This document shows positions 31,835 through 60,004 of a stretch of 60,887 nucleotides of DNA, in pieces. The stretch's first letter is position 1. Each line of letters starts with the position of its first letter. The DNA is from a virus (Duplodnaviria > Caudoviricetes). The stretch lies in the IMG/VR virus record IMGVR_UViG_3300028196_000013, positions 1 through 60,887 of that record. One strand, given 5' to 3'. The position numbers and the translations under genes were made by a program. The notes beneath the pieces were generated by a model that was not told the origin of the DNA, made no database searches, and worked only from the letters and a program-made list of their open reading frames with translations.

Positions 31835-32788
31835 ATGAGAGCAAAAAGAAAAGTGACAAAGAAAAGAACACTGAAACCTTCTGACTTTCTGAAGCTGTGG
31901 ATAAATTATTGTGAGGAATTTCTATCGAGTTACTTAGGATATCCGATAGAAGACGAAATCACCGCAGAGACTCGAGATGAGTCATTCGGCATTTGGTTGC
32001 TGTCTACTCCTCACTTTAGCAAAGTCCCCACAAATAGCGAGTTGGAGACACTTGAAAAGGAGGAGCAAGAAGAACGACTACGAGCGATGGCGTTGGTGGT
32101 TGTGGCCGAATACTTCGGAACGGATATACTGGATTCAATCCCGTGTGTAGATGGTGAGAGTTTTGGCGACAAAGAGGCTTACGACAAGTTCTTTGAGAAT
32201 GAGGAGTGGGCTGAAGCAGCCATATTCTCAGAATTGATGCACGATGAAAGCGACCACCAGGTTCGTAGTTATCCGCATGACTCGAAGATTGACTTGGCAG
32301 ATGCGATTACAGAGAATGCAATTGCGCAGAACGCAGTCGACCTTTTGGCAAAGAAGGTAGAAGAGAAACAAACAGAAGAAGAAGCCATTCCTGACGAAGA
32401 GTTGGTTATTGGCCTCGCAGAAGAAACGGGCATTGAATATCCGGAGATACCTGCGGATGTCGATTCGTCTGTTGATGAATTTATGAGCGAAATCGAAGAA
32501 CATGTGCATGATGAAAATTGCATGCATTCGCATGAAGCGAAGGTTCCTGTAATTGCTCATACGCATGACGCTGTTCCTTGGGCGACCTTGGCGGCGATTG
32601 AAAAACACAAGAACGCTATTGCAAATAACGAGAATTCTGTCTTGGCCCTGGCTAACGGGGTTGAGGAACTTGTTGATAATGGAGGCGTTCAGACCAAGAG
32701 GGGATTGCTCGATGCGATCCTCATCTTGATAGAAGCAAAACCAGCAGAAGCCCTAAGAATTGTGGCGAGTTGGGAAAAATTGAACTGA
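31835..32788 (+). CDS. Acidic hypothetical protein
   Basis: Start reassigned to the CTGAAC|ATG (MRAKRK). Confidence 0.75.
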   Translation: MRAKRKVTKKRTLKPSDFLKLWINYCEEFLSSYLGYPIEDEITAETRDESFGIWLLSTPHFSKVPTNSELETLEKEEQEERLRAMALVVVAEYFGTDILDSIPCVDGESFGDKEAYDKFFENEEWAEAAIFSELMHDESDHQVRSYPHDSKIDLADAITENAIAQNAVDLLAKKVEEKQTEEEAIPDEELVIGLAEETGIEYPEIPADVDSSVDEFMSEIEEHVHDENCMHSHEAKVPVIAHTHDAVPWATLAAIEKHKNAIANNENSVLALANGVEELVDNGGVQTKRGLLDAILILIEAKPAEALRIVASWEKLN

Positions 32789-32790
32789 AC

Positions 32791-33024
32791 ATGGATAACA
32801 GAACAAAATTGAACCGAGATGGCGTATTGAAACTCAAGACTATCAATGCCCGAAAGGCTGGAAATGCGATTACAAAATTGATGATAAGGAATGCAACCAA
32901 AGCAGATAGAGAGGCGGTCTTATTGCGCCACGATGCAATTGGTAAAGCTCTTGATAATCTAATCAAAGAATTGAATACGACCGAAGTTCTCAAGTTAGAA
33001 CTGACACAAAAATACGAAAACTGA
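32791..33024 (+). CDS. Hypothetical protein
   Basis: CTGAAC|ATG start (MDNRT). Confidence 0.7.
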   Translation: MDNRTKLNRDGVLKLKTINARKAGNAITKLMIRNATKADREAVLLRHDAIGKALDNLIKELNTTEVLKLELTQKYEN

Positions 33025-33026
33025 AC

Positions 33027-33470
33027 ATGGCATTTAATCAACCGATTGACGGAAAAAATTGCGTGAAATACAAAATCGCAAAGACAAATCGACAAAGTTG
33101 TTTGCTGTGTGGCCATCCCATGTTTGAAGGAAGCATCGGAGTGTCTATGACAAACTCACATACTGAGGCTGTCAAATCAAAGAAAGCCAAATCAACAAAC
33201 CTGTGGTTACACGCAGAGTGCATGGCTCGACTCAGTAAAGAATTGAGGCGTGAAGACTTTGAAACAAACCAGCGAATAAACTTGAAAAAATGCACTTCGA
33301 AGAAACAATCGTGTATTTGGTGTGAAAAGAAAATTACACAAAGCATACAGATTGAGTTCAACAACAAAAATGACGCGATTACTTCAAAAAAATCGTTATG
33401 GATTCACAGAAAGTGCGCAAAAGAGATGGGAAGATCCCTCCACTGGAGGAATCGAAACCTGCCAAACTGA
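33027..33470 (+). CDS. Protein with two PARP-type-like Zn finger repeats
   Basis: Two CxxC...W(L/I)HxxC repeats. Confidence 0.65.
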   Translation: MAFNQPIDGKNCVKYKIAKTNRQSCLLCGHPMFEGSIGVSMTNSHTEAVKSKKAKSTNLWLHAECMARLSKELRREDFETNQRINLKKCTSKKQSCIWCEKKITQSIQIEFNNKNDAITSKKSLWIHRKCAKEMGRSLHWRNRNLPN

Positions 33471-33472
33471 AC

Positions 33473-33775
33473 ATGAGCATTAGAAAAATGGAAGAAGGTG
33501 AGAAAACAGTAACACTCCTGAAGCGCGAACATTTGATGAGTTTAGGCGTTCACGAAAGAACATGCAATCGTTTGATTGTGTCTTCAATAGGAATCGCAAG
33601 AGCGATTAGGGTGATTGAGGGTGCGTTCCCAATCCGTAGTGACTTTGAGGCGCTTCTCCTCAATATTTTGAAAGAAGCTTTGCATAAATCGGAAATGAGC
33701 CACATGGATGTGGATGTAAATGAAATTGAGGACCAGCAAGCTATCTACAAATCAGCGTGTAAGGCGCTTGAATGA
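33473..33775 (+). CDS. Hypothetical protein
   Basis: CTGAAC|ATG start (MSIRK). Confidence 0.7.
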   Translation: MSIRKMEEGEKTVTLLKREHLMSLGVHERTCNRLIVSSIGIARAIRVIEGAFPIRSDFEALLLNILKEALHKSEMSHMDVDVNEIEDQQAIYKSACKALE

Positions 33776-33782
33776 ACTGAAC

Positions 33783-34232
33783 ATGACAGAGAAAGAATAC
33801 ACTTGGACAAAGCTGATGGACGCTGTAGGAGACAGGGTGGACAAGCATCTTAACGATGCAATGATGGTCGACGGTAGAGACGATGGTTTGGACGGTTGGT
33901 TCAAACCTGCTGCAAATGGATGGGGAGGTTTCAGAATCGTAGAACCAAACACGATTGCAAAATGTCATGGATACACCATGGGGTTGAAAGAAGACCTCTA
34001 CAACGATCATACATACATCGCTCTTCCGCAAGAGAAGAAAAAACTGATTCCAGAAAAGGATACACTTTTCTTGCTGCTCGGGACTCTCAAGACCGGAGAA
34101 ACCGTTTACACACACTGGCTTGATGAAAGTGCGAGATTTGCACAAAAAGTCGCATGCGAATGGTGGGACAGCTCAGAAGGCGAGGTGTTGCAAGAATGGG
34201 GAATCAAATACGAGGATGTAGAAGAAAACTGA
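33783..34232 (+). CDS. Hypothetical protein
   Basis: CTGAAC|ATG start (MTEKE). Confidence 0.7.
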   Translation: MTEKEYTWTKLMDAVGDRVDKHLNDAMMVDGRDDGLDGWFKPAANGWGGFRIVEPNTIAKCHGYTMGLKEDLYNDHTYIALPQEKKKLIPEKDTLFLLLGTLKTGETVYTHWLDESARFAQKVACEWWDSSEGEVLQEWGIKYEDVEEN

Positions 34233-34234
34233 AC

Positions 34235-35239
34235 ATGGGATTTTGGAAAAAGAAAGAACCAGAAATAGTCGGGTCATGGGATGACGAAGAGGAAACTCCA
34301 GTGGTGGAAACCACGATGGAATCCGTGGAATTCGTTGACCAGCCCGAAACGAACCAAATACCCGTGCAAACGGTTGTAGTGAAAGGGCAAATGAGAGCCA
34401 CTGGATCTACGAGCAAACCAAGGAAAACGAAAAGCAAAGCGGAGATTGCAGCAGCACTGCCCATCAATGAAAGGATGCAACTGCTGATTGACTTCTATGC
34501 TGCTGTGTTGGCAGGGACAATCCCCTCCTTCATGGTGCAGGGTGGACCTGGCCTTGGAAAGACATACATTCTGCTTGAGATGTTCAAAAAACAAGGGTGG
34601 ATTGAAGGAAAGGATTACTTGATGATTAAAGCAGGTGTGTCGGCATTCGGTGTCTATGGCATAATCTGTAAATGGGCTGATAAGGCCGAGCAGGCAATCC
34701 AAGATGCAAAGAGCAAAGGTAACAAGGCATTCAAGCCGAAAATCCCTGTTCTTGTGTTTGACGATGTCCCGATGTTTAGTGCGGGTAAGGAACACCGCCT
34801 TACAGAAATTATCAAAGCTATGACTGATTCAACTTCTGGAGAGGAAGGCAGATTGGTCAGTTGGCGAACGAACAAAACCAAGGATGATCCTGCCGAGGCT
34901 AAAGCCGCAGGAACTTATCCTTCAGAAGTCCGCTACAAGGGCGGAGTAATCATCATCACAAACGAGGATGCCAAGAAAATCGACAAACCGATGCAAGACA
35001 GGTCGGGAGGTCCGTTATTCTTGACTGTGACTCAAGATGAAATGATTGAAAGAATGAAACTTCTTGCTCCTTCGATGGGGCCGAAAACGATGGACCCCAA
35101 GTTGAAACAGACTGTTCTCAACTGGCTGTGTTCGAGCGAATTCGAAGGAGAAGAACTGAGTATGCGAACATTACACAAGGCGCTGCTGATTGCAAACGCC
35201 AATCCAAAGAGATGGAAATCAATGTGCGTAATTCTATGA
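34235..35239 (+). CDS. AAA+-type P-loop ATPase
   Basis: Walker A GGPGLGKT; Walker B VLVFDD; sensor IIITN; DRS. Confidence 0.85.
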   Translation: MGFWKKKEPEIVGSWDDEEETPVVETTMESVEFVDQPETNQIPVQTVVVKGQMRATGSTSKPRKTKSKAEIAAALPINERMQLLIDFYAAVLAGTIPSFMVQGGPGLGKTYILLEMFKKQGWIEGKDYLMIKAGVSAFGVYGIICKWADKAEQAIQDAKSKGNKAFKPKIPVLVFDDVPMFSAGKEHRLTEIIKAMTDSTSGEEGRLVSWRTNKTKDDPAEAKAAGTYPSEVRYKGGVIIITNEDAKKIDKPMQDRSGGPLFLTVTQDEMIERMKLLAPSMGPKTMDPKLKQTVLNWLCSSEFEGEELSMRTLHKALLIANANPKRWKSMCVIL

Positions 35240-35247
35240 AACTGAAC

Positions 35248-35529
35248 ATGAGCAAGAATAAGAGGAACCGAAACGCGATAAAAACGATATTGGAGGGTAA
35301 GGAACTTACCACGATTGATGTCCACGACGCTCTAAATCTCAAATTTAGGCAAGGGCCGACGATGAACCAAGTGGGGAACTTGCTGTCAAGAATTCCAGAG
35401 GTTGAAAAAATCGGTATGATTGACATATCAACGAGGCGATTCAATCGCAGAACGACAACAAACTACAACAATTACAACAACTACACGGGACGAGTTAGAG
35501 TTGCTTTGTGGAGAATGAAAACAGACTGA
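35248..35529 (+). CDS. Winged-helix protein, paralog of 55323..55562 (DUF3860-like)
   Basis: GPTMNQVGNLLSR vs GTTSQQLGNVLAK. Confidence 0.6.
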   Translation: MSKNKRNRNAIKTILEGKELTTIDVHDALNLKFRQGPTMNQVGNLLSRIPEVEKIGMIDISTRRFNRRTTTNYNNYNNYTGRVRVALWRMKTD

Positions 35530-35531
35530 AC

Positions 35532-35849
35532 ATGACGGACGAACGAACAGATGAAGAATTCATAGCCGAAGTCATTCGAAGAGGGAAGCAAAAACCCGAA
35601 GAGTGGAAATTAGAAGAACTGATTAGATTGTATGATATCCCCGAAAACGAGTTAGAATTAGTGCTTGCCATGGAAGGGAGAGAAGGACTTCTTACGATCG
35701 GGCACTATACTCGCATCGAAGTTAGAGGTTGCACCAACAAGTTGTGTGACGGAAAGGAAAGAAAGCCATGTAGGCTTCTCCAATACATTGAGACCTGTAC
35801 AAAGTGCTTGGTTAGAATTGGAGATGTGCCAAATAGCGCATGGGAATGA
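35532..35849 (+). CDS. Hypothetical protein with Cys cluster
   Basis: CTGAAC|ATG start (MTDER). Confidence 0.7.
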   Translation: MTDERTDEEFIAEVIRRGKQKPEEWKLEELIRLYDIPENELELVLAMEGREGLLTIGHYTRIEVRGCTNKLCDGKERKPCRLLQYIETCTKCLVRIGDVPNSAWE

Positions 35850-35856
35850 ACTGAAC

Positions 35857-36087
35857 ATGTCTAAGAACGATATTGATGTAGGAATAATCCTTCAAAAAGA
35901 AGAATTGAAAGAATTGATTGAAGCGATCTCCGCAGCACAATTTATTTCGAACATGATGGTATTCCCGACAAACCAAAGGGCTGAACTTAATGAGGTCATG
36001 GAGAAATGGGAAAACGAGGAAATGGGAAAAAAGGTATGGGCGCATTTGGGTGTATTACAAGAAGTGCTTGATAACGAAACAAACTGA
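35857..36087 (+). CDS. Hypothetical protein
   Basis: CTGAAC|ATG start (MSKND). Confidence 0.7.
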   Translation: MSKNDIDVGIILQKEELKELIEAISAAQFISNMMVFPTNQRAELNEVMEKWENEEMGKKVWAHLGVLQEVLDNETN

Positions 36088-36089
36088 AC

Positions 36090-36434
36090 ATGACAATTCA
36101 ACATATTGATAAGTCGAAGAGACTGCAAGTATTGGCAAGAGCGATCTTTGAATCGAAGAAGGAAAAGACCGAAGCCAGCAGAGCAGTAAAAAGAATTGAA
36201 GACGAAATAAAGAAGTACGAAGAGGAAGTCAAAGGACTTCTCGGGAACGGGATTGGAGGATATAGCCACCATCTCCTCGAGGAAAAGATTGACAGTAAAA
36301 TCATAGGGATTGCAATTGGAAGCATCTCTGGAGGAAACCATTGGCAACCGCATTGGGAGAAACCGACAGTCGTTTTGGCGACTGCGAAATACCTGAATGG
36401 GAAGGGCTTGTCAAGCAAGCCTAAAAATGATTAA
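36090..36434 (+). CDS. Hypothetical protein, coiled-coil N-terminus
   Basis: CTGAAC|ATG start. Confidence 0.7.
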   Translation: MTIQHIDKSKRLQVLARAIFESKKEKTEASRAVKRIEDEIKKYEEEVKGLLGNGIGGYSHHLLEEKIDSKIIGIAIGSISGGNHWQPHWEKPTVVLATAKYLNGKGLSSKPKND

Positions 36435-36435
36435 C

Positions 36436-36651
36436 ATGCCACGAAATGTATCAAACCCGTTACGAAGAGGAACGCCGAAACCCAAAGTGGGTGAAGTGGC
36501 TAAAGTAATCGGCGGCGATGGGCCATTTCCTATGAATGAATTTGTAGAGGTTCTGTCAAAGCAATCCGGCGGGCAATATTTAGTGGAATCTCTCATTACA
36601 GGAGTGGTCGCCACTGTAAAAGGTAGTTGCCTTTTACCCGCAAAAAACTGA
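36436..36651 (+). CDS. Small SH3-like beta protein
   Basis: Variant junction GATTAAC|ATG; PKVGEVAKV pattern. Confidence 0.6.
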   Translation: MPRNVSNPLRRGTPKPKVGEVAKVIGGDGPFPMNEFVEVLSKQSGGQYLVESLITGVVATVKGSCLLPAKN

Positions 36652-36653
36652 AC

Positions 36654-36962
36654 ATGGAATTCATTATTGCAAAGAATTACTGGAATGAAATGAACCAAGA
36701 CGGAACGGAAGTAAAAGTAATCAATGTGTTGAAATTTGATAAAATGGAGTGGGGTTATCTTCATGGTGAAAATGAAATTCCCCTCATACCCAAATTCGAT
36801 TTAATTGACACAATTTATTTTGAAACGGAGGCTGAGAGAGAAAAAGAGTGGAATCTTATGAAAGTTGATGGATACACCAGCGTAAACGACTTTCAACCTC
36901 CAGCATATACACATGACCATGCGAGCAGTCTAAGAGAGGCTGTTACGGGAAAGGGAAACTGA
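36654..36962 (+). CDS. Hypothetical protein
   Basis: CTGAAC|ATG start (MEFII). Confidence 0.7.
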   Translation: MEFIIAKNYWNEMNQDGTEVKVINVLKFDKMEWGYLHGENEIPLIPKFDLIDTIYFETEAEREKEWNLMKVDGYTSVNDFQPPAYTHDHASSLREAVTGKGN

Positions 36963-36964
36963 AC

Positions 36965-37558
36965 ATGCCAACACAATACCATGATGGAAGAATATTTAGA
37001 TTGAGAGCAGACCCCGTTTACGGGAGTGAGATCACTCTTAAAATCACAGAAGAAGAATTACAAGCATTGCGGCAAATTGACCAAGAACAAATTGGAGGAA
37101 AGCAGCGCAGAGGCTTGGGATTGCTGATTGATTTTTTGATTACGGGTTCAACGAATCCAGCACTTGACCGGCTTATGCCGAATGTGCAGGCAAGGACTCA
37201 TGATGTCGAAACATCTCGAGCAGCAATTCCGAATTCGAAGAGATGGACGCAAAACCTTCACGATGCATACCAGATAATTGCTAAAGGGGAAGGACTTACA
37301 GATGAAGAAGCGCAAGACATTTACGCTCGAGCGCATCAAATTGACCGCAGGGACATCGGAAATCGATGGAGGCCTGCCAGAGTAGCCTTGGTGGCCATTG
37401 GTGCCGTGAAAAATACTGGGAGAAAGCGTCGAGTGCGTTCACAAAGGGAGGCAATCGTTTGGGCCGCAGTGGATGACACTTGGGCACCGCCGCAGATAAA
37501 TGAGACTATTCAAAAAGAACAAATCCTTGAGATGTTAAACAGAATCGAGGAAGAATGA
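36965..37558 (+). CDS. Hypothetical protein, probable winged-helix C-terminal half
   Basis: GLTDEE..RPAR..L...G.V..TG..R..AIVW pattern. Confidence 0.6.
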   Translation: MPTQYHDGRIFRLRADPVYGSEITLKITEEELQALRQIDQEQIGGKQRRGLGLLIDFLITGSTNPALDRLMPNVQARTHDVETSRAAIPNSKRWTQNLHDAYQIIAKGEGLTDEEAQDIYARAHQIDRRDIGNRWRPARVALVAIGAVKNTGRKRRVRSQREAIVWAAVDDTWAPPQINETIQKEQILEMLNRIEEE

Positions 37559-37565
37559 ACTGAAC

Positions 37566-54014: not shown

Positions 54015-54149
54015 ATGGAAAAAGAATGCTTTGCATGCGACCACGAAAGAAAAGTCCTCATCGTTGTACGAAAAAAGCCATTTTGTAAATGGTGCGTTGC
54101 GGATATATTGAAGGAACATATAGGTGATGATGGAGAATGGTTAAACTGA
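54015..54149 (+). CDS. Small Zn-finger protein (44 aa, not in ORF track)
   Basis: MEKECFAC..FCKWC; motif at both ends. Confidence 0.65.
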   Translation: MEKECFACDHERKVLIVVRKKPFCKWCVADILKEHIGDDGEWLN

Positions 54150-54151
54150 AC

Positions 54152-54961
54152 ATGGCAGAAATCGTAAAAGAAGATGAGTTCGATAAGAGCGAATACTACG
54201 ACGAAAATGGCGAGGTCATATACTGCAAAGACACCGAGATTTTAATTCAAGGTGAAGCTGGCGGTAGAGGCGAAAAGACAGAAATGAAAGATGGAAGCAC
54301 CATATCCACGATTACAATGGGCATCTACAGTGGGAATCTGTGGAAGTACAAAGTAGCCGAGTGGCCATGGAGTCATGCTATGATTGAGAGTGAGAGAGGG
54401 CCGCCGTATTGGGGAGTCACAGACGAACCTGCGGATTACTTCGCTCACAAATACAACTTTTACTGTGGAATTACATGGGTACAGAGAATGCCTGCGGAGG
54501 TTGCAATGTTTTTATTGTCAAGACCATTCCGATTGATACCACATACAGATGGAAGTGTAGGGCTACACGCAGCGATCAAAATTCACGATGACCCAGAAAA
54601 GGGTAAGGAATTGATTGAAGCATTGAGTGAATCCACAAAGTCATACAAACAATTCATCGAATCGTCCAGGAAACTGGGCATTCATGGATATGAAAGCGGT
54701 CCAAGAAGGCCGCGTACAATGATCTTAGACGCAGCAGTGCGATTGAGGGAAAAACTCGAAAAGATAGAAACTCAATTCAATAGAATTCGATGGTTGGAAT
54801 ACAACATCAGATTCCGAAACAACATGGATGAGTGGCATGATATGTTTGACACGCGGATGCACAAGGAATTTGTTGCTGATACGGCCAAAGCATTTGAAAA
54901 GATAGGAACCCTCCTCGGGCAAGAAACACTTGCAAACGAGGAAGAGGTAGACGAAGACTGA
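54152..54961 (+). CDS. Hypothetical protein
   Basis: CTGAAC|ATG start (MAEIV). Confidence 0.75.
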   Translation: MAEIVKEDEFDKSEYYDENGEVIYCKDTEILIQGEAGGRGEKTEMKDGSTISTITMGIYSGNLWKYKVAEWPWSHAMIESERGPPYWGVTDEPADYFAHKYNFYCGITWVQRMPAEVAMFLLSRPFRLIPHTDGSVGLHAAIKIHDDPEKGKELIEALSESTKSYKQFIESSRKLGIHGYESGPRRPRTMILDAAVRLREKLEKIETQFNRIRWLEYNIRFRNNMDEWHDMFDTRMHKEFVADTAKAFEKIGTLLGQETLANEEEVDED

Positions 54962-54963
54962 AC

Positions 54964-55320
54964 ATGGGATTATTGAAAACAGAATGTAAATCCTGCCAGC
55001 GTCCGTTGCAGGACATCAAATCCCAACTAAGGGGTATTGGCCCAATCTGTTATGAAAGGCCAAGATGCTCAAAATGCCATAAGCCAATAAAACGGTATGC
55101 GCATGCCGGATGGCACAGCACTCTCCTTTCTTGGAATGTATGGGGTGTCTACGGAAATCAAGCTGATAAGCGAAATCCAAACGGGATGTATTTTTTTGCA
55201 TTGTCGATATGCTGCAGTGCAGATATCGACAATGTTCAAATTATCTACGACGAATATGAAAAGGCAACGATGGATCACGAATTGACCCAGCGAGAATTGG
55301 CCGAGGCAAGAAGAGACTGA
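54964..55320 (+). CDS. DUF6011-like Zn finger protein
   Basis: CKSCQRPLQDIKSQLRGIGPIC. Confidence 0.7.
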   Translation: MGLLKTECKSCQRPLQDIKSQLRGIGPICYERPRCSKCHKPIKRYAHAGWHSTLLSWNVWGVYGNQADKRNPNGMYFFALSICCSADIDNVQIIYDEYEKATMDHELTQRELAEARRD

Positions 55321-55322
55321 AC

Positions 55323-55562
55323 ATGGCTAAGACAAAACGGATTAGAAGTTTAATCGCAGCATATTTGGAAAAAGAAGGTAAAGCATCTTTTACGAGGATA
55401 TTGACGCACATCAACGATACTACAAAGCATGGGACAACATCTCAGCAATTGGGGAATGTTCTGGCAAAGAACACAGAATTTACAAAGTGTGGAATGGTAT
55501 TCCAAGAATCAATGCTTACTGGCGGATATGAAGTAACAATATGGGAAATGAGCAAAAACTGA
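55323..55562 (+). CDS. DUF3860-like winged-helix protein
   Basis: HIN...HGTTSQQLGNVLAK...GGY...W; family recalled from Thermoplasmatota. Confidence 0.7.
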   Translation: MAKTKRIRSLIAAYLEKEGKASFTRILTHINDTTKHGTTSQQLGNVLAKNTEFTKCGMVFQESMLTGGYEVTIWEMSKN

Positions 55563-55564
55563 AC

Positions 55565-55747
55565 ATGAAAACATACGAGTGTCAAAAATTATGGCAGCCC
55601 TTGATTTGTGCTACGCACGGGGCTCAGTGGGTTGCAAACATACACGATGAAACGGAAGAAGATGAAAATGGCGAAACTTACACAATTCGAAGCATAAATT
55701 GTGCGGTTACGGGTTGCCATAATCTAATGAGAGAAATAAGAATCTGA
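55565..55747 (+). CDS. Small Cys/His protein
   Basis: CTGAAC|ATG start (MKTYE). Confidence 0.7.
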   Translation: MKTYECQKLWQPLICATHGAQWVANIHDETEEDENGETYTIRSINCAVTGCHNLMREIRI

Positions 55748-55749
55748 AC

Positions 55750-56091
55750 ATGACTGAATGTGAATTGTGCGACGATGTAGATTGCAGTCCAGGTTGCCCC
55801 AAATCTCAATGGAAGAGGGGGCTTGACTCGGGCTCGATTTTACGAGACAATTGGCAAAATGGAAGGACTGCGATATTTATTGGCGATCCACCTTACTTGG
55901 CAAAGGGTCTCGGAAATGGGAAATGCGAATTGCATGGAGAAAGAGAAGGATGCGAGGGTGCAGGCGAATTGTATGAATGGAAAGGACAAGACCCCTACAC
56001 TCTGCGAATGGTTACAAAATTAGCTTGTTCAACCTGCTTCTTCCAGCTTGAATTGGTAAGAAATGAAATAGAAAGCATAGATGGATACTGA
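55750..56091 (+). CDS. Cys-rich hypothetical protein
   Basis: CTGAAC|ATG start. Confidence 0.7.
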   Translation: MTECELCDDVDCSPGCPKSQWKRGLDSGSILRDNWQNGRTAIFIGDPPYLAKGLGNGKCELHGEREGCEGAGELYEWKGQDPYTLRMVTKLACSTCFFQLELVRNEIESIDGY

Positions 56092-56093
56092 AC

Positions 56094-56333
56094 ATGGAAG
56101 AAGACATTTTGGTGTTGACCGTAGTGAGTCTCCTTGTATTGACATGGATAGTTTACAAGGTGAGAAAAATGATTGAAAGAATAGATGTAATGGACCAAAC
56201 ATATTCAACGATGCTGAATGAATTGGGCTTCATGCTTGGAGCAACAATGGATCATCTGAAAGTGGTCCATCCTGACGACATCCCCAATGCACCGGATTTG
56301 AATAAGCTGGTGAGCGAGTGGGATAACAACTGA
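56094..56333 (+). CDS. Single-TM protein
   Basis: CTGAAC|ATG start; N-terminal hydrophobic helix. Confidence 0.7.
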   Translation: MEEDILVLTVVSLLVLTWIVYKVRKMIERIDVMDQTYSTMLNELGFMLGATMDHLKVVHPDDIPNAPDLNKLVSEWDNN

Positions 56334-56335
56334 AC

Positions 56336-56656
56336 ATGACGACAAGTGTTGATCTAAAAGGAGTGAAGAAGATTCACAGCCTCCCGTTCGAAGCAGAGGA
56401 CTGGGAGAAAGCTGAAATCTTCGCAAAGGAACTTGGATATGAGCAGACGGCTTACACCTCGCACGGGGTATTCAATGAGCTGGCTTGCATACCAGACCGA
56501 GAAGACTACGATATGGGGAAAAGAGAAGGAAGAATCATCAAGACGGCTGAACTTGGGTTCTTGTTTGTGCAAACAGACGAGAATTTGCTTGGCTGGCAAT
56601 TGGATGATTTCATCAATGAGAAATACGAACGAAAATTGATTCGTAATGAAGACTGA
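56336..56656 (+). CDS. Hypothetical protein
   Basis: CTGAAC|ATG start. Confidence 0.7.
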   Translation: MTTSVDLKGVKKIHSLPFEAEDWEKAEIFAKELGYEQTAYTSHGVFNELACIPDREDYDMGKREGRIIKTAELGFLFVQTDENLLGWQLDDFINEKYERKLIRNED

Positions 56657-56658
56657 AC

Positions 56659-56916
56659 ATGACAATTATTGATGATTTGCAAACCATAATCGATGGAGCA
56701 GAGGAAGGTTTCTTCTCTATTGACGATTTGAAAGATATTGTGGAAAAAGAAAAGGGTCAAATGAAGACTCTTGGCGAGTTGATAAAATCCGCCAAGGAGT
56801 TAATCATTTACGATGAAGAAGACGATATGTGGGGTTATGACGAGGAAAGATGGTCGAATCCACCGTTGGATGCTATGGATCTTATTGTTCACATAGCAAC
56901 GCTTGACGAGAACTGA
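56659..56916 (+). CDS. Acidic hypothetical protein
   Basis: CTGAAC|ATG start. Confidence 0.7.
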   Translation: MTIIDDLQTIIDGAEEGFFSIDDLKDIVEKEKGQMKTLGELIKSAKELIIYDEEDDMWGYDEERWSNPPLDAMDLIVHIATLDEN

Positions 56917-56918
56917 AC

Positions 56919-57053
56919 ATGGAATGCCCGGAATGTGGAAAAGATATGCAATTCAAATTGTCAGAAGAGCAAGAAGGATGGAGAGATGAAAAGGGATACC
57001 TTTGGATAACTGTTGAAGACAGTTTCAGGTGCCCGTGGTGCAAACAAAACTGA
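56919..57053 (+). CDS. Small Zn-ribbon protein (44 aa, not in ORF track)
   Basis: MECPECG..RCPWC; motif at both ends. Confidence 0.65.
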   Translation: MECPECGKDMQFKLSEEQEGWRDEKGYLWITVEDSFRCPWCKQN

Positions 57054-57055
57054 AC

Positions 57056-57304
57056 ATGACTAAAGAAGCCGAAGAGAGTTGGACGATTAGAATGAATGAT
57101 TTGATAACCAAATTGAATTTTGATGAAGAATTGTTTTTTGAATACCTAAGCGAAGATTGGACCGTTAGCGAATACATGGATGCAGTAGCCGGATTGGGCG
57201 AAGGTGGCCCTGTTGGAGAATTGGCAGAAGGATGGGGACGAGCAGAATATGTGAATTCCCTCATCATTGATTTCCTCAAGAACGGAAAAAGAACCGAATT
57301 ATAA
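57056..57304 (+). CDS. Acidic hypothetical protein
   Basis: CTGAAC|ATG start (MTKEA). Confidence 0.7.
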   Translation: MTKEAEESWTIRMNDLITKLNFDEELFFEYLSEDWTVSEYMDAVAGLGEGGPVGELAEGWGRAEYVNSLIIDFLKNGKRTEL

Positions 57305-57310
57305 CTGAAC

Positions 57311-57601
57311 ATGGACACTTTGACAAAATGGCTTGAATGGGAAGAACCGAATGTTTGGGATGTCTGCGGAGATATTCATTTCCGAGACTGGGAATGGAGC
57401 AGATTTTTCGGCAAAGATTTTGAAACATTGATCTCTGGCGGTTGGCTTCTCGAAGTCCTGCCATGGCAACTGGATTGCTACACATGCTATATGCTGATTT
57501 GGGGGACAGATCACGCTTATGCTGAACCAATGGGCCTAATCGGAGGTCCTGAGAGTTATCACCGAGACCTTGATGGTCGCCGGTCCGCAGTTGACGGATG
57601 A
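57311..57601 (+). CDS. Trp-rich hypothetical protein
   Basis: CTGAAC|ATG start. Confidence 0.7.
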   Translation: MDTLTKWLEWEEPNVWDVCGDIHFRDWEWSRFFGKDFETLISGGWLLEVLPWQLDCYTCYMLIWGTDHAYAEPMGLIGGPESYHRDLDGRRSAVDG

Positions 57602-57609
57602 AACTGAAC

Positions 57610-57879
57610 ATGGAAGAACCAAATAAATTCGAGGATTTAGTTGAAGGAAAGGACTACATCTTGCTTGACGGCGAGGAAATGGAGTCTTTGCTTCGTGCAG
57701 AAAGAGAGGGAAGGCCCATAGATGAGACCCCAGTAGAGCCCGATTGGGACGATACGAAAAGAAAAGAAGAAATCATCAAGTGGTTCATGGAGAGGATGGA
57801 GAATGTCCCCGATGGAACTTACATGGATGTGAAGATTGCACTTTCCTATGAGAAAGACGGTGTCTTTTACGATGTATAA
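57610..57879 (+). CDS. Acidic hypothetical protein
   Basis: CTGAAC|ATG start (MEEPN). Confidence 0.7.
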   Translation: MEEPNKFEDLVEGKDYILLDGEEMESLLRAEREGRPIDETPVEPDWDDTKRKEEIIKWFMERMENVPDGTYMDVKIALSYEKDGVFYDV

Positions 57880-57886
57880 ACTGAAC

Positions 57887-58309
57887 ATGGCTGAAATTAG
57901 AATAATTTACCAGATAGACAATGCGGCGTTCGATGAAACCCCATTGCCAGAGACAAAGAGAATATTGAATGAAATCACGGAAGCAATGAGCAATGGTTCG
58001 CAAGGCGGACTGATTCAAGACATAAATGGCAATGGCATTGGTGCCTGGGTCATTGAAGGTGGCGATGAAACATACCCGTGCGTAAAGTGCGGTAAGGACG
58101 CAACAGAAGACTACCTTGTTCCAGAAGTAGGGATGACTTGTGACGGGTGCATGACCGATGCCGATTTAGAAGCATGGCACGCACATAACAAACTGCACAA
58201 CCCCGAATCATACGACGAGGAAGAGCCGTGGACCGGCGATGCTTACAACCCATCCGAAGATGAAGAATTTGGCTTTGGCCGCAACGACGGCCCAAGAGAT
58301 GATAACTGA
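57887..58309 (+). CDS. Hypothetical protein with Zn finger
   Basis: CTGAAC|ATG start (MAEIR); DNAAF..DINGN; CVKC..CDGC. Confidence 0.7.
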   Translation: MAEIRIIYQIDNAAFDETPLPETKRILNEITEAMSNGSQGGLIQDINGNGIGAWVIEGGDETYPCVKCGKDATEDYLVPEVGMTCDGCMTDADLEAWHAHNKLHNPESYDEEEPWTGDAYNPSEDEEFGFGRNDGPRDDN

Positions 58310-58311
58310 AC

Positions 58312-58479
58312 ATGTCACAAGATGAAAAGAGCAGCGTGCCCTGCGAAGCCTGTATGGGAACAGGAGGGCTGGAAATGAATGGAGGACTTTCGCTATCAAA
58401 CGAATACTTCGAATGCGAAATATGTGAAGGCGTAGGTGAAATCGAGGTGATTCCAACCTACAAAAATACAACAGAATAA
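58312..58479 (+). CDS. Small DnaJ-type CxxCxGxG Zn-finger protein (55 aa, not in ORF track)
   Basis: CEACMGTG and CEICEGVG. Confidence 0.7.
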   Translation: MSQDEKSSVPCEACMGTGGLEMNGGLSLSNEYFECEICEGVGEIEVIPTYKNTTE

Positions 58480-58485
58480 CTGAAC

Positions 58486-58686
58486 ATGGAATTTAGACAT
58501 CACTTGATGAGAAATGACGGAGAGAGAAAGATGTGGGTAATGAATGATCAAGGAATGTATGGATGGTTCACTTCTCAAAGACCGAGGGTTGGGATCTCCA
58601 CCTTCATCCGAAACCACCGACAAGAAATCGATGAAGCGATTGAGATGTATATGAGGCGAAGTGCCGAAAATGCACGAAGATACTGA
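58486..58686 (+). CDS. Hypothetical protein
   Basis: CTGAAC|ATG start. Confidence 0.7.
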   Translation: MEFRHHLMRNDGERKMWVMNDQGMYGWFTSQRPRVGISTFIRNHRQEIDEAIEMYMRRSAENARRY

Positions 58687-58688
58687 AC

Positions 58689-59102
58689 ATGAGTGACATT
58701 GGAAAATTGAATGAAGGAATAGAAGTATTTGTGATGCCAAAGGATTCACATACATTGCTGAAGGAGGCATTAGGATGTATTGCCGCCACGATTGATGCTG
58801 CGTTAGAGGCTTGCTTCAATAATGAAGAAGAATGGAAGGCCACACGAACGGAAATCTTCGATTCGTGGACTTTGATAACAGGATTCTTTGAAACCACAAT
58901 GAATATCGAAGGCAAGACCCTCGACGAAGGGAAAAAAACCTGCTGTGTTCGTGAAGAATGCGAGTGGATGGATGGGAAAGGAGAAAATGACCACGGGTGC
59001 ATTGGATTTGTTCAAGATGCAATCTTCGCACAGATTGAAGACTTGCCTCACGAACAAGGTATCCTGGTGCTAAAATCCGCATTGGATTTATTGGAAAACT
59101 GA
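58689..59102 (+). CDS. Hypothetical protein
   Basis: CTGAAC|ATG start. Confidence 0.7.
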   Translation: MSDIGKLNEGIEVFVMPKDSHTLLKEALGCIAATIDAALEACFNNEEEWKATRTEIFDSWTLITGFFETTMNIEGKTLDEGKKTCCVREECEWMDGKGENDHGCIGFVQDAIFAQIEDLPHEQGILVLKSALDLLEN

Positions 59103-59104
59103 AC

Positions 59105-59440
59105 ATGATAGATGGAAAAACGATAGCCGACATGGTGTTCTTAATGGAAACATGGAACATGAATAATGGAACAGATGGATTTATTGATTTCTATGCAAAT
59201 CACCATCCGAATTGCCGATACGACGAAGAACAGGTTGAAGATTTATTGAACTTGGGAAGTATGATGGAAGCATGGCCGGATAAGTGGATGCAAGAGCAGT
59301 ATCAAAGATGGTTCAAAAACGATGACAGATTTTTGACAATGTTTCAATATTGTGCAGCGGATGGTCGAGGACTATTCACCAACTGGTTGCAAAAGATTGG
59401 AAAAGCGCAGAAAGTGATTGAAGATATCGCTGGAAACTGA
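59105..59440 (+). CDS. Hypothetical protein
   Basis: CTGAAC|ATG start. Confidence 0.7.
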   Translation: MIDGKTIADMVFLMETWNMNNGTDGFIDFYANHHPNCRYDEEQVEDLLNLGSMMEAWPDKWMQEQYQRWFKNDDRFLTMFQYCAADGRGLFTNWLQKIGKAQKVIEDIAGN

Positions 59441-59442
59441 AC

Positions 59443-59829
59443 ATGGATAATTGGCTGAATACAAGAGCAGGAAGGGATTTCTCAATGAGAACCATTCCTG
59501 ATATGACGAAAGCGATGAACAGATTGGCAGATGCCTTACTTGTTCAAAACGATTTGACAATAGACGAAAGGCAACCAGTAGATCGCCCGACACTCGAAGA
59601 TATTGTAGAGTCGGAACGAGACTGGGAGGGTGATGCGAAATTGCTCTACACAGCGTTAAGCAGAATGCACCAAGCGGACAATGAAGACATGGAAATTGCT
59701 ACAGAAATGGCGTTTGATGTATTATCAAGCGTCTCAATGGATTTCCGAAACGAATACGCAGCCTACACATGGGAACGCTGTGGGATGAATACTATCTTTG
59801 TTTCCCGACGAACACAAACGATGAGATAA
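59443..59829 (+). CDS. Hypothetical protein
   Basis: CTGAAC|ATG start. Confidence 0.7.
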   Translation: MDNWLNTRAGRDFSMRTIPDMTKAMNRLADALLVQNDLTIDERQPVDRPTLEDIVESERDWEGDAKLLYTALSRMHQADNEDMEIATEMAFDVLSSVSMDFRNEYAAYTWERCGMNTIFVSRRTQTMR

Positions 59830-59836
59830 ACTGAAC

Positions 59837-60004
59837 ATGGTAAAATGGAGCGACGGACATCCGAGAAAAACAATCATGAACAAAATCATCAATGGGAAAC
59901 TTCCCTATGATTGCCCCGGTTGTAAGCGGGCTAAATGGTTTGAACCACTTGATGACGGGAAGTGGTCTTGCCCGAAATGCAAGACAATATTGGAATTTGA
60001 CTGA
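59837..60004 (+). CDS. Small Zn-ribbon protein (55 aa, not in ORF track)
   Basis: CPGC..CPKC; motif at both ends. Confidence 0.65.
   Translation: MVKWSDGHPRKTIMNKIINGKLPYDCPGCKRAKWFEPLDDGKWSCPKCKTILEFD

What the first reader, a model, noticed from the sequence alone, without database searches (positions are those of the whole stretch)
32781..59839. Motif is kept intact even where it is not the stop codon
Seen: when the upstream ORF stops earlier, the full motif still follows. Examples are TAA-ACTGAACATG (42778, 57877, 59827), TAA-CTGAACATG (57302, 58477), TGA-TATA-ACTGAACATG (50716) and TGA-ACTGAACATG doublets (33773, 35847, 37556, 42543, 50916). The motif-to-ATG distance is invariant while the stop position floats. 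Junction copies are followed by a purine, whereas most internal CTGAAC copies I noticed (about 28756, 35981, 56547, 57523) are followed by a pyrimidine; one exception lies near 27269. Inference: the signal is tied to the downstream 5' end, and CTGAAC-purine may be avoided inside genes, as expected for a cleavage site.
Basis: partly seen in the sequence, partly recalled or inferred. Interest (0 to 1): 0.72.

Follow-up and report, generated by a model that had tools for sequence, protein, structure and literature searches.

The report
Seven-letter punctuation mark before every gene
In this marine virus, probably of archaea, about 70 genes in a row, plus a tRNA and several small RNAs, each begin right after the same seven letters (ACTGAAC or ACTTAAC); this most likely marks where a long transcript is cut into single-gene messages and is also where genes get shuffled between related viruses.

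Summary
CTGAACATG occurs 71 times on the + strand (about 1 expected). The core is the heptamer ACTKAAC at -7..-1 of the ATG. In 20 of 70 window junctions the upstream stop lies earlier and the heptamer stays intact. A 30-63%-identical relative (G002) keeps the heptamer, yet uses its TGA as stop in only 3 of 46 junctions.

The heptamer also flanks a tRNA, repeated hairpin RNAs and a ~360-nt conserved non-coding RNA, so it is not just a ribosome signal. No TATA, -35/-10 or Shine-Dalgarno element accompanies it.

CTKAAC+purine is about five-fold depleted inside array genes (2 seen, about 10 expected, P~0.002). CTKAAC+pyrimidine is not significantly depleted, and neither is CTKAAC+purine in the left-hand genes. 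The longest listed contigs from marine RNA libraries fill single genes and do not cross array junctions.

Cassettes are reshuffled between relatives exactly at the heptamer.

Best reading (about 0.45): an RNA punctuation/cleavage signal that yields leaderless mRNAs, with cassette shuffling as a by-product. Rivals are a unit-wise transcription initiator, reinitiation plus recombination, and a pure recombination joint. The cut itself and the enzyme are not shown. I found no described counterpart.

The parts
30536..60302 (+). Head-to-tail array of about 72 small genes. 70 of them start directly after the heptamer (68 ACTGAAC, 2 TCTGAAC). The TGA inside the heptamer is the upstream stop in 50 of the 70 junctions examined.
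26809..26818 (+). Heptamer-ATG junction between an 85-aa gene (26556-26813) and a 172-aa gene (26816-27334), upstream of the main array.
27338..27360 (+). Heptamer ACTGAAC followed by a 13-nt leader carrying a Shine-Dalgarno-like AGGGGA, then the ATG of a 649-aa gene. Here the heptamer does not abut the ATG and an SD is present.
27358..29307 (+). 649-aa protein of a very rare family (11 relatives among 1.84 billion representatives). It has no Pfam or PHROG family and no PDB fold match. It is not homologous to the first array gene of G002, so it is not assignable as the motif factor.
25641..25672 (+). Four tandem ACTTAAC heptamers. They lie between two RNA-library depth bins of different level (about 33-54 in the bin to the left, 64-139 to the right in runs X1, X4 and X5; X2 shows only 3.6 to the right).
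29527..29906 (+). ACTTAAC, then a non-coding RNA of about 358 nt (29534-29891), then a double heptamer ACTGAAC-A-ACTGAAC. The stretch is 84% identical to contig C46 by blastn (404 columns) and 90% mean column identity in MAFFT. There is no Rfam match.
29907..30452 (+). Cluster of small structured units. There are two 49-nt hairpin units (29907-29955, 30152-30200), three 75-nt-class units and one shorter variant, plus the tRNA. Neighbours are separated by ACTTAAC-A-ACTGAAC. The closing stems begin right after one heptamer and end right before the next.
30312..30388 (+). tRNA-Arg(TCT). It is preceded by ACTGAAC plus 6 nt. Its encoded CCA end overlaps the A of the following ACTTAAC.
30477..30515 (+). 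The only strong hairpin-plus-T8 terminator-like site on the + strand in 24-44 kb, just before the first array gene.
36429..36438 (+). Degenerate junction GATTAAC-ATG. The TAA inside it stops gene 36090-36434, and the ATG at 36436 opens a 71-aa gene that ends in the next heptamer.
45350..45728 (+). Heptamer at the end of gene 44263-45354, then a 362-nt non-coding unit that starts with a hairpin right after the heptamer, then the next heptamer-ATG. There is no SD before that ATG.
49697..49747 (+). Heptamer, a 34-nt spacer, then heptamer-ATG: a mini-unit between two marks.
23513..24520 (-). TFIIB/TFB-like protein (335 aa), conserved in G002. It is the main reason to think the host is an archaeon.
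24552..24966 (+). Four CCGATGGC-centred repeats spaced 133-137 nt, each preceded by an A/T-rich TATA-like stretch. Similar repeats stand in G002. They may be promoters or iterons at the head of the rightward unit.
49960..50718 (+). PCNA-like sliding clamp, used to find relatives. L122 is 58% identical. A large set of marine metagenome contigs is about 30-35% identical.

Best explanation
ACUKAAC followed by a purine is an RNA-level punctuation mark.

Inferred steps:
- The right-hand 36 kb is transcribed rightwards as one or a few very long precursors, starting in the repeat-rich region at about 24.5-25 kb.
- A sequence-specific endoribonuclease, viral or host and not identified, cuts at each heptamer. 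If the upstream message is to keep its in-motif stop codon and the downstream message its AUG, the cut must fall between the UGA/UAA and the next purine.
- Each cut makes the 3' end of one unit and the 5' end of the next.
- Protein units become leaderless or near-leaderless mRNAs that start at AUG and need no Shine-Dalgarno sequence.
- The tRNA and the structured RNAs are released in the same way.

Shown directly: because every unit carries the same 10-nt joint (ACTGAAC+ATG), units recombine there, so the array behaves as a set of shufflable cassettes.

Other shown points are the anatomy, the conservation, the lack of promoter or SD signals, the depletion, and the cassette breakpoints. The cut itself, its exact position and the enzyme are inferred.
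For: (1) The mark is tied to unit starts. CTGAACATG occurs 71 times on + against 1.06 expected. 69 of 98 + strand heptamers abut an ORF-opening ATG. All 71 start codons are ATG.

(2) It is independent of the stop codon. In the window 20 of 70 junctions have an earlier stop. In G002 only 3 of 46 use the in-motif stop.

(3) It is conserved across divergent relatives: L122 5 of 5 junctions, G002 44 copies on one strand, contig C46 29 copies. Proteins of window and G002 are only 21-63% identical.

(4) It flanks non-coding units. These are the tRNA, the 49-nt and 75-nt hairpin units whose closing stems are flush with the heptamers (fold z -2.7 to -3.4 for three window units, -4.6 for a C46 unit, but -1.0 for a fourth window unit), and the roughly 358-nt RNA. 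A translation-only signal would have no place there.

(5) Where the heptamer is not adjacent to the ATG, an SD-bearing leader follows it (27338).

(6) Nothing is conserved upstream of -9: no TATA at -26 and no -35/-10. No strong terminator lies within the part of the array scanned, up to 44 kb.

(7) Heptamer genes mostly lack SD-like words (14 of 68 by a loose 4-mer test). Left-hand genes carry GAGGTGA/GGAGG-type SDs (16 of 31).

(8) Two genes sit 43 and 371 nt after the previous stop with heptamer-ATG and no obvious SD. Reinitiation is reported to fail at about 20 nt (PMC10666635, abstract read).

(9) CTKAAC-R is depleted inside array genes: 2 against about 10, P~0.002, in window plus G002. 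CTKAAC-Y is not significantly depleted (4 against 7.1). Left-hand genes are not depleted either.

(10) RNA-library contigs. Of the 32 longest pieces listed (153 more were not shown), the 23 in the array each lie within one gene and none crosses a junction by 31 nt or more. Examples: 39215-40159 in gene 39197-40231; 34299-35242 in 34235-35239; 42994-43573 in 42982-43632; and 37001-37505 and 37585-38180 in adjacent genes. Several start 12-19 nt after the ATG. Adapter-joined ends at 25134 and 29553 lie 16 and 19 nt after heptamers. That is the loss expected at true RNA 5' ends in RNase H/Pol I second-strand libraries (my knowledge, not a call).
Against: - No nucleotide-resolution RNA ends. All four runs are assembled contigs, X1 and X2 look like one data set, and no DNA run was laid for comparison. 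The tool itself rates such evidence as a weak hint.
- One contig in each run (26906-29465/29496, or 26843-29503 in X5) crosses the heptamer at 27338, so that site is either uncut or only partly cut.
- Cassette mosaicism between strains could by itself break assemblies at junctions.
- No nuclease or other RNA enzyme was recognised among the window's or G002's proteins. Both records are less than half complete.
- Depletion in the window alone is marginal (P 0.02-0.045), and 13 patterns were tested.
- The left-hand genes do not avoid the word. That needs an extra assumption, such as timing or a co-transcriptional action.
- C at -1 and a purine at +1 also fit the general rule for transcription start sites, and the virus encodes a TFB-like factor.
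Confidence: 0.45

Rival explanations
1. Unit-wise transcription start. The heptamer is an initiator-type promoter element read by a virus-directed polymerase: host RNAP reprogrammed by the viral TFB-like factor, or a viral RNAP encoded in the unsampled half. Each unit starts at the purine after ...AAC, giving leaderless primary transcripts. The closest analogue is the poxvirus late TAAATG, where initiator and start codon overlap (recalled).
For: - The signal sits immediately 5' of the unit start, with C at -1 and a purine at +1 in nearly all non-internal copies.
- It precedes non-coding RNAs as well as genes.
- A TFIIB-like protein is encoded next to the regulatory region and is conserved in G002.
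- The array follows a strong terminator with no room for a standard promoter.
- RNA contigs start just inside genes.
Against: - There is no TATA/BRE-like or any other conservation at -20 to -35, and only 7-8 nt are conserved.
- There are no terminators between units. Transcripts would therefore be nested and should cross junctions, which the 23 listed array contigs do not.
- A five-fold avoidance of internal copies is more than harmless internal sense promoters would be expected to cause.
- Tandem double and quadruple heptamers between non-coding units have no obvious use for a promoter.
- No RNAP gene was seen in about 110 kb of window plus G002.
Confidence: 0.22
2. Translation signal plus copy-paste. 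The RNA stays polycistronic. Ribosomes terminate at the in-motif or nearby stop and restart at the adjacent AUG, or the A-rich heptamer region acts as an SD-independent start enhancer. The heptamer is uniform because cassettes spread by recombination at this joint.
For: - 66 of 70 window junctions have the stop within 17 nt of the next ATG, and 50 have TGA-AC-ATG.
- Both variants contain a stop codon: TGA in ACTGAAC and TAA in ACTTAAC.
- Termination-reinitiation is established in archaea and bacteria for overlaps and very short gaps (PMC6728339, search listing only; PMC10666635, abstract read).
- Cassette shuffling at the joint is shown.
- In another phage, G003, a similar string follows a normal SD (GGAGTGACTGACC-ATG).
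Against: - 25 heptamers stand where nothing is translated: around the tRNA and structured RNAs, and in tandem.
- Genes 43 and 371 nt from the previous stop keep heptamer-ATG without an obvious SD, whereas about 20 nt is reported to abolish coupling.
- Avoidance concerns CTKAAC followed by any purine, not only by ATG.
- The listed RNA contigs do not cross junctions.
- Zero spacing to the AUG rules out an SD-type helix. This rests on the known 4-10 nt SD spacing, which is recalled.
Confidence: 0.15
3. Purely DNA-level cassette joint. The heptamer (+ATG) is a recombination site, either for a site-specific enzyme such as the conserved serine recombinase at 9999-10823 or for microhomology-driven exchange. 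It is kept because it moves genes, as attC does in integrons, and has no role in expression.
For: - Between the window and C46, homologous blocks are single cassettes. In most of the 16 blocks the alignment begins 7-14 nt before the unit start, that is at or just before the heptamer, or ends 3-4 nt after the next unit start, or both. The cassette order differs between the two.
- Array gene content differs almost completely between the window and G002 (4 shared array genes), while the left block is syntenic.
- A serine recombinase is conserved in both.
Against: - A site that only recombines need not abut ATG with zero spacing. It would not need to be followed by a purine, would not flank RNA stems flush, and would not replace SD sequences.
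- All copies are direct repeats of only 7-10 bp, with no inverted repeat or hairpin as in attC.
- No tyrosine integrase was seen.
- Selection at the level of gene mobility alone is unlikely to hold 140-odd copies invariant in three lineages.
Confidence: 0.1

Closest known systems
Phage T4 RegB endoribonuclease sites (GGAG in intergenic regions of early mRNAs). Recalled; the review PMC3014915 was seen only in the search listing.
   Same: A short single-stranded sequence word, placed at translation-initiation regions of a phage's early genes, proposed as the target of a sequence-specific endoribonuclease.
   Different: RegB cuts inside the Shine-Dalgarno sequence and inactivates the messages. 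Here the word replaces the SD, is 7 nt long, abuts the AUG, and would mature the messages. No RegB-like protein was found.
MazF-type sequence-specific mRNA interferases, including E. coli MazF making leaderless mRNAs by cutting at ACA just before AUG. PMC5610899 abstract seen in the listing; 7-nt-specific MazF homologues are recalled.
   Same: A 3-7-nt single-stranded recognition word. A cut just 5' of the AUG gives leaderless mRNA. Avoidance of the word in protected genes.
   Different: MazF is a stress toxin acting on a subset of host RNAs. Here the word punctuates essentially every unit of a 30-kb viral array and also non-coding RNAs. No MazF/PemK domain was detected.
Mitochondrial polycistron processing (tRNA punctuation and FASTK-dependent non-tRNA junctions), which gives leaderless mRNAs. 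Abstracts of 10.64898/2026.07.30.741833 and PMC13230965 seen in the listing.
   Same: One long precursor, cuts at every unit boundary, mRNAs without 5' leaders, and tRNAs and mRNAs released by the same cuts.
   Different: Mitochondria use tRNA structure as the mark. Here the mark is a linear heptamer, and the system is in a prokaryotic virus.
PeSL cassettes of T4-type phages (composite early promoter plus stem-loop that mediates modular shuffling). PMC4122927 abstract read; PMC2839356 listing only.
   Same: A repeated regulatory sequence between small variable early genes that serves as the crossover point for gene swapping between related phages. That matches what one search shows.
   Different: PeSLs are tens of nucleotides long, with a sigma-70 promoter and a terminator hairpin. 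Here there are 7-10 nt, no promoter or hairpin, and a fixed register with the ATG.
Translational coupling by termination-reinitiation (PMC6728339 listing; PMC10666635 abstract).
   Same: Stop and start codons 2 nt apart in most window junctions.
   Different: Coupled pairs are usually -4 or -1 overlaps with no conserved extra sequence. The heptamer persists when the stop moves away and also occurs in non-coding contexts.
Integron attC sites (recalled).
   Same: Arrays of promoterless cassettes joined by a repeated site. ACTTAAC happens to fit the inverse-core consensus RYYYAAC.
   Different: The dominant form ACTGAAC does not fit that consensus. There is no 57-141-bp imperfect palindrome, no matching GTTRRRY core and no IntI tyrosine recombinase.

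Membership tests
Shine-Dalgarno ribosome-binding site | Purine-rich word complementary to the 16S rRNA 3' end (GGAGG/GGTGA type) | tested here: not met
   The heptamer ACTKAAC has no GGAG/GAGG/GGTG. Only 14 of 68 heptamer genes have such a 4-mer at -22..-8, against 16 of 31 left-hand genes.
Shine-Dalgarno ribosome-binding site | Spacing of about 4-10 nt to the start codon (recalled rule) | tested here: not met
   The heptamer ends at -1, so spacing is 0 in 71 of 71 CTGAACATG copies.
Standard archaeal or bacterial promoter | TATA/BRE around -26 to -35, or -35/-10 hexamers | tested here: not met
   Information content is 0.12 bits or less at every position from -60 to -14 in 71 sites, and 0.15 bits or less from -40 to -12 in 44 G002 sites. 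Sigma-70-like hits are at the level of shuffles, 32 against 30.3.
Sequence-specific endoribonuclease target (RegB/MazF-like) | Short single-stranded recognition word at defined places, avoided elsewhere in the target transcripts | tested here: met
   The heptamers are left unpaired in the predicted folds of the units. CTKAAC-R is 2 against about 10 inside array genes, P~0.002.
Sequence-specific endoribonuclease target (RegB/MazF-like) | RNA ends produced at the word | tested here: inconclusive
   The 23 listed RNA-library contigs in the array stop at or inside gene borders and do not bridge array junctions. They are assemblies, and one junction (27338) is bridged.
Sequence-specific endoribonuclease target (RegB/MazF-like) | A cognate nuclease | tested here: inconclusive
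   None was recognised among 78 (Pfam), 30+73 (PHROGs) and 47 (G002, Pfam) proteins. The records are 48% and 39% complete, and most proteins have no family.
Termination-reinitiation coupled gene pairs | Overlap or very short distance between stop and start | tested here: met
   66 of 70 window junctions are 17 nt or less. The feature is not met for gaps of 43 and 371 nt. In G002, 16 of 46 gaps are 35 nt or more, though some of those hold unlisted genes.
Termination-reinitiation coupled gene pairs | The signal is needed only between translated genes | tested here: not met
   25 of 98 heptamers flank or precede non-coding units.
Integron attC | Imperfect palindrome with inverse core RYYYAAC and core GTTRRRY, plus an IntI tyrosine recombinase (recalled definition) | tested here: not met
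   Only 7-10 nt are conserved. The reverse complement GTT[C/A]AGT is absent from 24.5-30.6 kb. No tyrosine recombinase hit was found.
PeSL (T4-type promoter-early stem-loop) | Early sigma-70 promoter plus terminator stem-loop between genes | tested here: not met
   No promoter or hairpin signal at junctions. The functional consequence, shuffling at the repeat, is met.
CRISPR repeat / Cas6 site | Repeats of 24-48 nt separated by unique spacers of similar length | tested here: not met
   The repeat is 7 nt (15 nt when doubled). The 'spacers' are genes of 44-502 codons, or repeated RNA units.
TFIIB/TFB family (for the protein at 23513-24520) | Two cyclin-fold repeats of the TFIIB core | tested here: met
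   A profile of 11 relatives matches six TFIIB core-domain chains over profile positions 108-286, E 8.5e-6 to 4.6e-4. Pfam TFIIB repeat is matched by 4 of 11 members, best E 1.3e-5, below the curated cut-off for the window protein.

The most novel reading that the evidence does not exclude
A marine archaeal tailed virus runs its whole early or accessory gene set through a heptamer-directed RNA punctuation system. One still-unknown sequence-specific endoribonuclease cuts a precursor of more than 30 kb after every ACUKAAC. The cuts release about 70 leaderless mRNAs, a tRNA and several abundant non-coding RNAs. The same 10-nt joint makes every gene a freely exchangeable cassette. This would be a prokaryotic-virus counterpart of mitochondrial or trypanosomatid polycistron processing, with a programmable 7-nt RNA cutter behind it.
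Probability: 0.4. Interest if true: 0.85.

Novelty: new variant of a known kind. Interest (0 to 1): 0.78.

Why it matters
If the heptamer is a cut site, this is a compact and fully sequence-defined way for a prokaryotic virus to turn one transcript into dozens of separately translatable, leaderless messages and small RNAs. It implies an undescribed endoribonuclease with 7-8-nt specificity, which would be a potentially useful RNA tool.

It bears on how leaderless translation is used in archaea and their viruses. It also shows a very short expression signal doubling as the joint for cassette shuffling, and so links gene expression architecture to the high gene turnover of viral accessory regions.

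There is a practical point too. Gene callers that look for SD motifs will mis-start genes in such genomes, and the heptamer gives exact starts.

My full-text searches found no description of such a junction word in a phage or archaeal virus. Supplementary files of papers were closed and could hold relevant motif tables.

Tried and rejected
- Rfam on 29200-30600 at E up to 10 found only the tRNA. No ribozyme, RNase P, SRP or other family matched the flanked RNAs.
- A trans-spliced or copied leader, as with the coronavirus TRS. The avian coronavirus TRS CUUAACAA/CUGAACAA turned up, and I take the shared letters as coincidence. The laid contigs show no joints between the 25.6-kb heptamer cluster and any gene start (table 5).
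- A guide RNA complementary to the heptamer. GTT[C/A]AGT is absent from 24.5-30.6 kb, and only loose 6-nt wobble matches exist.
- Box C/D, BHB-splicing and RelE-type ideas were considered from memory. They were dropped because mRNA junctions have no helices and the non-coding copies are not translated.
- A DNA orientation signal of the Chi or KOPS type was rejected because of the fixed register with ATG.
- The 649-aa head-of-array protein as the motif factor. It has no PDB sequence hit. The AF2 model has pLDDT 72 and pTM 0.66. No Foldseek hit reaches E 0.001, the best VIA Z is 3.6, and the Atlas scores are 0.78 or lower. It is not homologous to G002's first array protein (hhalign probability 0.3%).
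- Searches for more relatives that failed: megablast against phages; viral contigs with a 24-mer and a 22-mer of the non-coding RNAs; with the 649-aa protein; with the PCNA profile; and with the TFB-like profile.
- The 15-mer ACTTAACAACTGAAC gave 113 or more single chance hits, none of which carries the junction word.
- The genome-contig scan gave 49 loci. Apart from one 19-kb contig, the multi-copy loci I inspected (11 of 28 with 3 or more copies) were unrelated tandem repeats, and the rest carried too few copies to suggest an array.
- The MAG that holds that contig has the word only at background level elsewhere, so it gives no host. The about-33%-identical PCNA contigs from marine metagenomes lack the word.
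- My attempt to compare SD use between motif and non-motif genes in G002 rests on crude start calls, and I do not use it.
- Earlier findings of the scan were not open.

Full report
**What the record is**

The window is a whole IMG/VR virus record of 60,887 bp, with no end repeats, estimated 48% complete. The left 24.5 kb holds genes on both strands. They include a tail-fibre-like protein, a serine recombinase and glycosyltransferases, and they have ordinary Shine-Dalgarno sequences of the GAGGTGA/GGAGG kind.

From about 24.5 kb rightwards everything runs on the + strand:
- a repeat-rich non-coding region;
- three genes;
- a cluster of small RNAs with a tRNA-Arg;
- from 30.5 kb to the end, about 72 small genes head to tail.

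Nearly all array proteins are orphans. 9 of 71 have any Pfam hit (6 above Pfam's own cut-off) and 11 of 73 any PHROG hit.

Two proteins point to an archaeal host. One is a PCNA-type clamp whose more distant relatives (about 30-35% identical) are numerous marine metagenome contigs. The other is a TFIIB/TFB-like protein. Its family profile matches TFIIB core domains at E 8.5e-6 to 4.6e-4 over both cyclin repeats; single-sequence hits are weak. Several marine RNA and DNA libraries hold the sequence.

**Checking the observation**

CTGAACATG occurs 71 times on the + strand and once on the - strand, against about 1 expected.

In 50 of 70 junctions the TGA inside the word is the stop of the upstream gene. 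In 20 of 70 the stop comes earlier: 16 at 6-17 nt, and the rest at 43, 219, 371 and 3208 nt. The word is untouched in all of them.

The 219-nt case resolves into a further gene that starts after a degenerate GATTAAC-ATG. The 371-nt and 43-nt cases are non-coding units bounded by the word on both sides.

A position profile shows that the conserved core is the heptamer ACTGAAC at -7..-1. There is a weak preference at -8 (A here, C in a relative) and nothing conserved from -60 to -14. The variant ACTTAAC is used interchangeably, mostly in non-coding places. ACTGAAC contains TGA and ACTTAAC contains TAA.

**Relatives**

The same heptamer-ATG joint stands in three other independent assemblies:
- L122, a 3.6-kb marine contig with a 58%-identical clamp: 5 of 5 junctions.
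- G002, a 49.8-kb IMG/VR record: 44 copies on one strand. Its left block is syntenic at 21-63% protein identity, and only four array genes are shared.
- A 19.2-kb contig (C46) binned into a marine MAG: 29 copies, while the rest of that MAG is at background.

In G002 only 3 of 46 junctions use the in-motif TGA. In 27 the stop ends 7-11 nt before the ATG (typically TGA-NC-ACTGAAC-ATG), yet the heptamer is invariant. This is the strongest confirmation that the word belongs to the downstream start and not to the stop.

A different phage found by chance (G003) has GGAGTGACTGACC-ATG joints. That is a normal SD followed by a similar string. I treat it as a separate, SD-based case.

**The heptamer outside genes**

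Between 29,527 and 30,452 the heptamers flank non-coding units:
- a roughly 358-nt RNA that is 84-90% identical in C46 with no Rfam match;
- two 49-nt units and four 75-nt-class units;
- the tRNA.

Neighbours are separated by ACTTAAC-A-ACTGAAC. In the predicted folds the closing stems begin at the first base after one heptamer and end at the last base before the next, and the heptamers themselves are unpaired. The fold z-scores are -2.7 to -3.4 for three window units, -4.6 for a C46 unit and -1.0 for a fourth window unit.

C46 and G002 have different inner sequences in the same frame of heptamers. Four ACTTAAC copies stand in tandem at 25,641-25,672.

At 27,338 the heptamer is followed by a 13-nt leader with an SD-like AGGGGA and then the ATG of a 649-aa gene. 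Where the mark is not flush with the ATG, an SD is supplied.

These facts exclude a purely translational signal and point to the making of RNA 5' ends.

I shuffled codon order within genes, and separately shuffled synonymous codons, leaving out the start codon and the last four codons.

| Gene set | Word | Observed | Expected | P |
|---|---|---|---|---|
| Window array, 67 genes | CTGAAC-R | 0 | about 3 | ~0.045 |
| Window array, 67 genes | CTKAAC-R | 1 | about 5.4 | 0.02-0.03 |
| Window + G002, 113 genes, 50.9 kb (little shared sequence) | CTKAAC-R | 2 | 9.4-10.2 | ~0.002 |
| Window + G002 | CTKAAC-Y | 4 | 7.1 | 0.12-0.16 |
| Window + G002 + C46 | CTKAAC-R | 2 | 12-13 | <=0.0005 |
| Left-hand genes of window and G002, 52 genes, 34 kb | CTKAAC-R | 5 | about 7 | ~0.27 |

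C46 shares cassettes with the window, so the three-record pool is not independent. Thirteen patterns were tested, and the pooled CTKAAC-R result survives correction.

To the right of 24.5 kb, the full heptamer followed by a purine never occurs inside a coding sequence. The two internal heptamers there are followed by C and T.

**RNA libraries**

Sixteen listed runs on record as RNA hold part of the 10-kb query stretch (29300-39299). I laid four of them on 25,001-45,000. All are assembled contigs, and X1 and X2 look like the same data.

Summed depth per bin (table 2):
- 33-54 at 25.0-25.7 kb;
- 64-139 at 25.7-26.3 kb in X1, X4 and X5, where single contigs have depths of 97-216 (X2 shows 3.6);
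- 7-22 at 26.3-27.0 kb;
- 19-38 over the 649-aa gene;
- 0-11 in the array.

Of the 32 longest pieces listed (153 more were not shown), the 23 in the array each lie inside one gene. None crosses a junction by 31 nt or more. Several nearly fill their gene:
- 39215-40159 in gene 39197-40231;
- 34299-35242 in 34235-35239;
- 42994-43573 in 42982-43632;
- 31814-32736 in 31835-32788;
- 44275 onward, a 1075-nt record in the 1092-nt gene 44263-45354, if it is collinear beyond the laid stretch.

The adjacent genes 36965-37558 and 37566-38747 carry separate pieces. Starts lie 12-19 nt after the ATG in several cases. Adapter-joined ends at 25134 and 29553 lie 16 and 19 nt after heptamers. I read this as the usual loss at true 5' ends, from general knowledge of library chemistry.

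Against this, one contig per run crosses the heptamer at 27,338, no DNA run was laid for comparison, and strain mosaicism could also break assemblies. I count this evidence as a hint, not proof.

**Cassette shuffling**

Between the window and C46, homologous blocks are single units (16 blocks, 66-92% identical). Most alignments begin 7-14 nt before a unit start, end 3-4 nt after the next unit start, or both. The order of units differs: the C46 order corresponds to window positions 32.6, 33.0, 31.6, 35.8, 34.5..., 38.7, 33.8, 39.2 kb. Recombination at the joint has therefore happened repeatedly.

**Mechanism**

The reading that accounts for the most facts is an RNA punctuation mark cut by a sequence-specific endoribonuclease. 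Long rightward precursors fit the data, since there is no promoter-like or terminator-like signal between units. The cut would fall after the in-motif stop and before the purine. It would release leaderless mRNAs (all 71 starts are ATG, with no SD), the tRNA and the small RNAs. I put this at about 0.45.

The main rival (0.22) is a unit-wise transcription start. It fits C(-1)/R(+1), the TFB-like factor and the terminator before the array. It does not fit the lack of any upstream element, the lack of terminators, the non-bridging contigs or the strength of the avoidance.

Reinitiation plus copy-paste (0.15) fits the 2-nt gaps. It fails on the non-coding copies and on genes 43 and 371 nt from the previous stop, because about 20 nt is reported to abolish coupling (PMC10666635, abstract).

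A purely DNA-level joint (0.10) explains the shuffling but not the register with ATG, the purine, or the flush RNA stems.

No enzyme could be named. The rare 649-aa protein at the head of the array has no recognisable fold and is not shared with G002.

**Comparison with known systems, and novelty**

The finding works most like RegB or MazF target words, and like mitochondrial polycistron punctuation that yields leaderless mRNAs. Its evolutionary side resembles the PeSL cassettes of T4-type phages (PMC4122927, abstract).

It fails the defining features of SD sites, standard promoters, attC sites, PeSLs and CRISPR repeats (see the membership table).

Five full-text searches found no description of such a heptamer joint. 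Paper supplements were closed.

I rate it a new variant of a known kind, namely sequence-word RNA punctuation or a regulatory cassette joint. There is a fair chance that the underlying enzyme and logic are new.

Noticed in passing
window 29534-29891 (and L261 4534-4897): A non-coding RNA of about 358 nt bounded by heptamers. It is 84-90% identical between the window and contig C46, more conserved than most neighbouring genes (66-75%). It has no Rfam match and is present in RNA libraries. Function unknown.
   Followed up: partly
window 25128-26334: The non-coding stretch upstream of the genes gives the deepest contigs in the RNA libraries: single contigs of depth 51-71 at about 25.1-25.6 kb and 97-216 at about 25.7-26.0 kb, against 0-11 in the array bins. 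One RNA of about 500 nt has adapter-marked ends at 25134 and 25622.
   Followed up: partly
window 24552-24966; also G002 (reverse strand, about 17.9-18.5 kb of my orientation): Four (window) to six (G002) repeats built on CCGATGGC, spaced about 135 nt in the window, each after an A/T-rich TATA-like stretch. They are candidate tandem promoters or replication iterons next to the TFB-like gene.
   Followed up: partly
window 23513-24520 (-): A virus-encoded TFIIB/TFB-like protein with conserved N-terminal cysteines. Its relatives are 37-82% identical and sit on contigs of up to 129 kb that I could not fetch.
   Followed up: partly
window 26320-26400 and 26470-26550: Two copies of an element of about 80 nt (…caagagggcg…gtgtagataggga…). 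The first runs into CTTAAC plus a hairpin, and the second into the ATG of the 85-aa gene at 26556.
   Followed up: no
window 45726-46160 / 46163-46453 and 42788-42979 / 43635-44021: Two pairs of array genes, the first adjacent and the second close by, begin with nearly the same first 15-18 nt (ATGAGAATGACGAA…, ATGGGAAGAGAATTGA…). This suggests tandem or nearby cassette duplication.
   Followed up: no
window 48193-49701 and 54964-55320; G002 last large gene: Three proteins start with a DUF6011 motif (E 1e-8 to 7e-8) at their extreme N-terminus. DUF3860, a fold solved as PDB 2od5 with function unknown, occurs at 55323-55562 and in G002, plus a sub-threshold hit at 35248-35529.
   Followed up: no
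L209 (G003) about 5860-10270: An unrelated 59-kb phage record (GC 56%) has a run of early genes each preceded by the near-identical string aaGGAGTGACTGACC-ATG. This is an SD followed by a fixed spacer that holds two out-of-frame TGA codons.
   Followed up: partly
window 30477-30515: A 14-bp hairpin plus T8 directly upstream of the first array gene. The array would need read-through, anti-termination or its own starts.
   Followed up: no
window 9999-10823: A serine recombinase (274 aa), 48% identical in G002. It could be an integrase or invertase. No link to the heptamer was tested.
   Followed up: no
window 29434-29491: A tandem 29-nt repeat (93% identical) at the place where the RNA-library contigs of the 649-aa gene end (29465-29503).
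   Followed up: no
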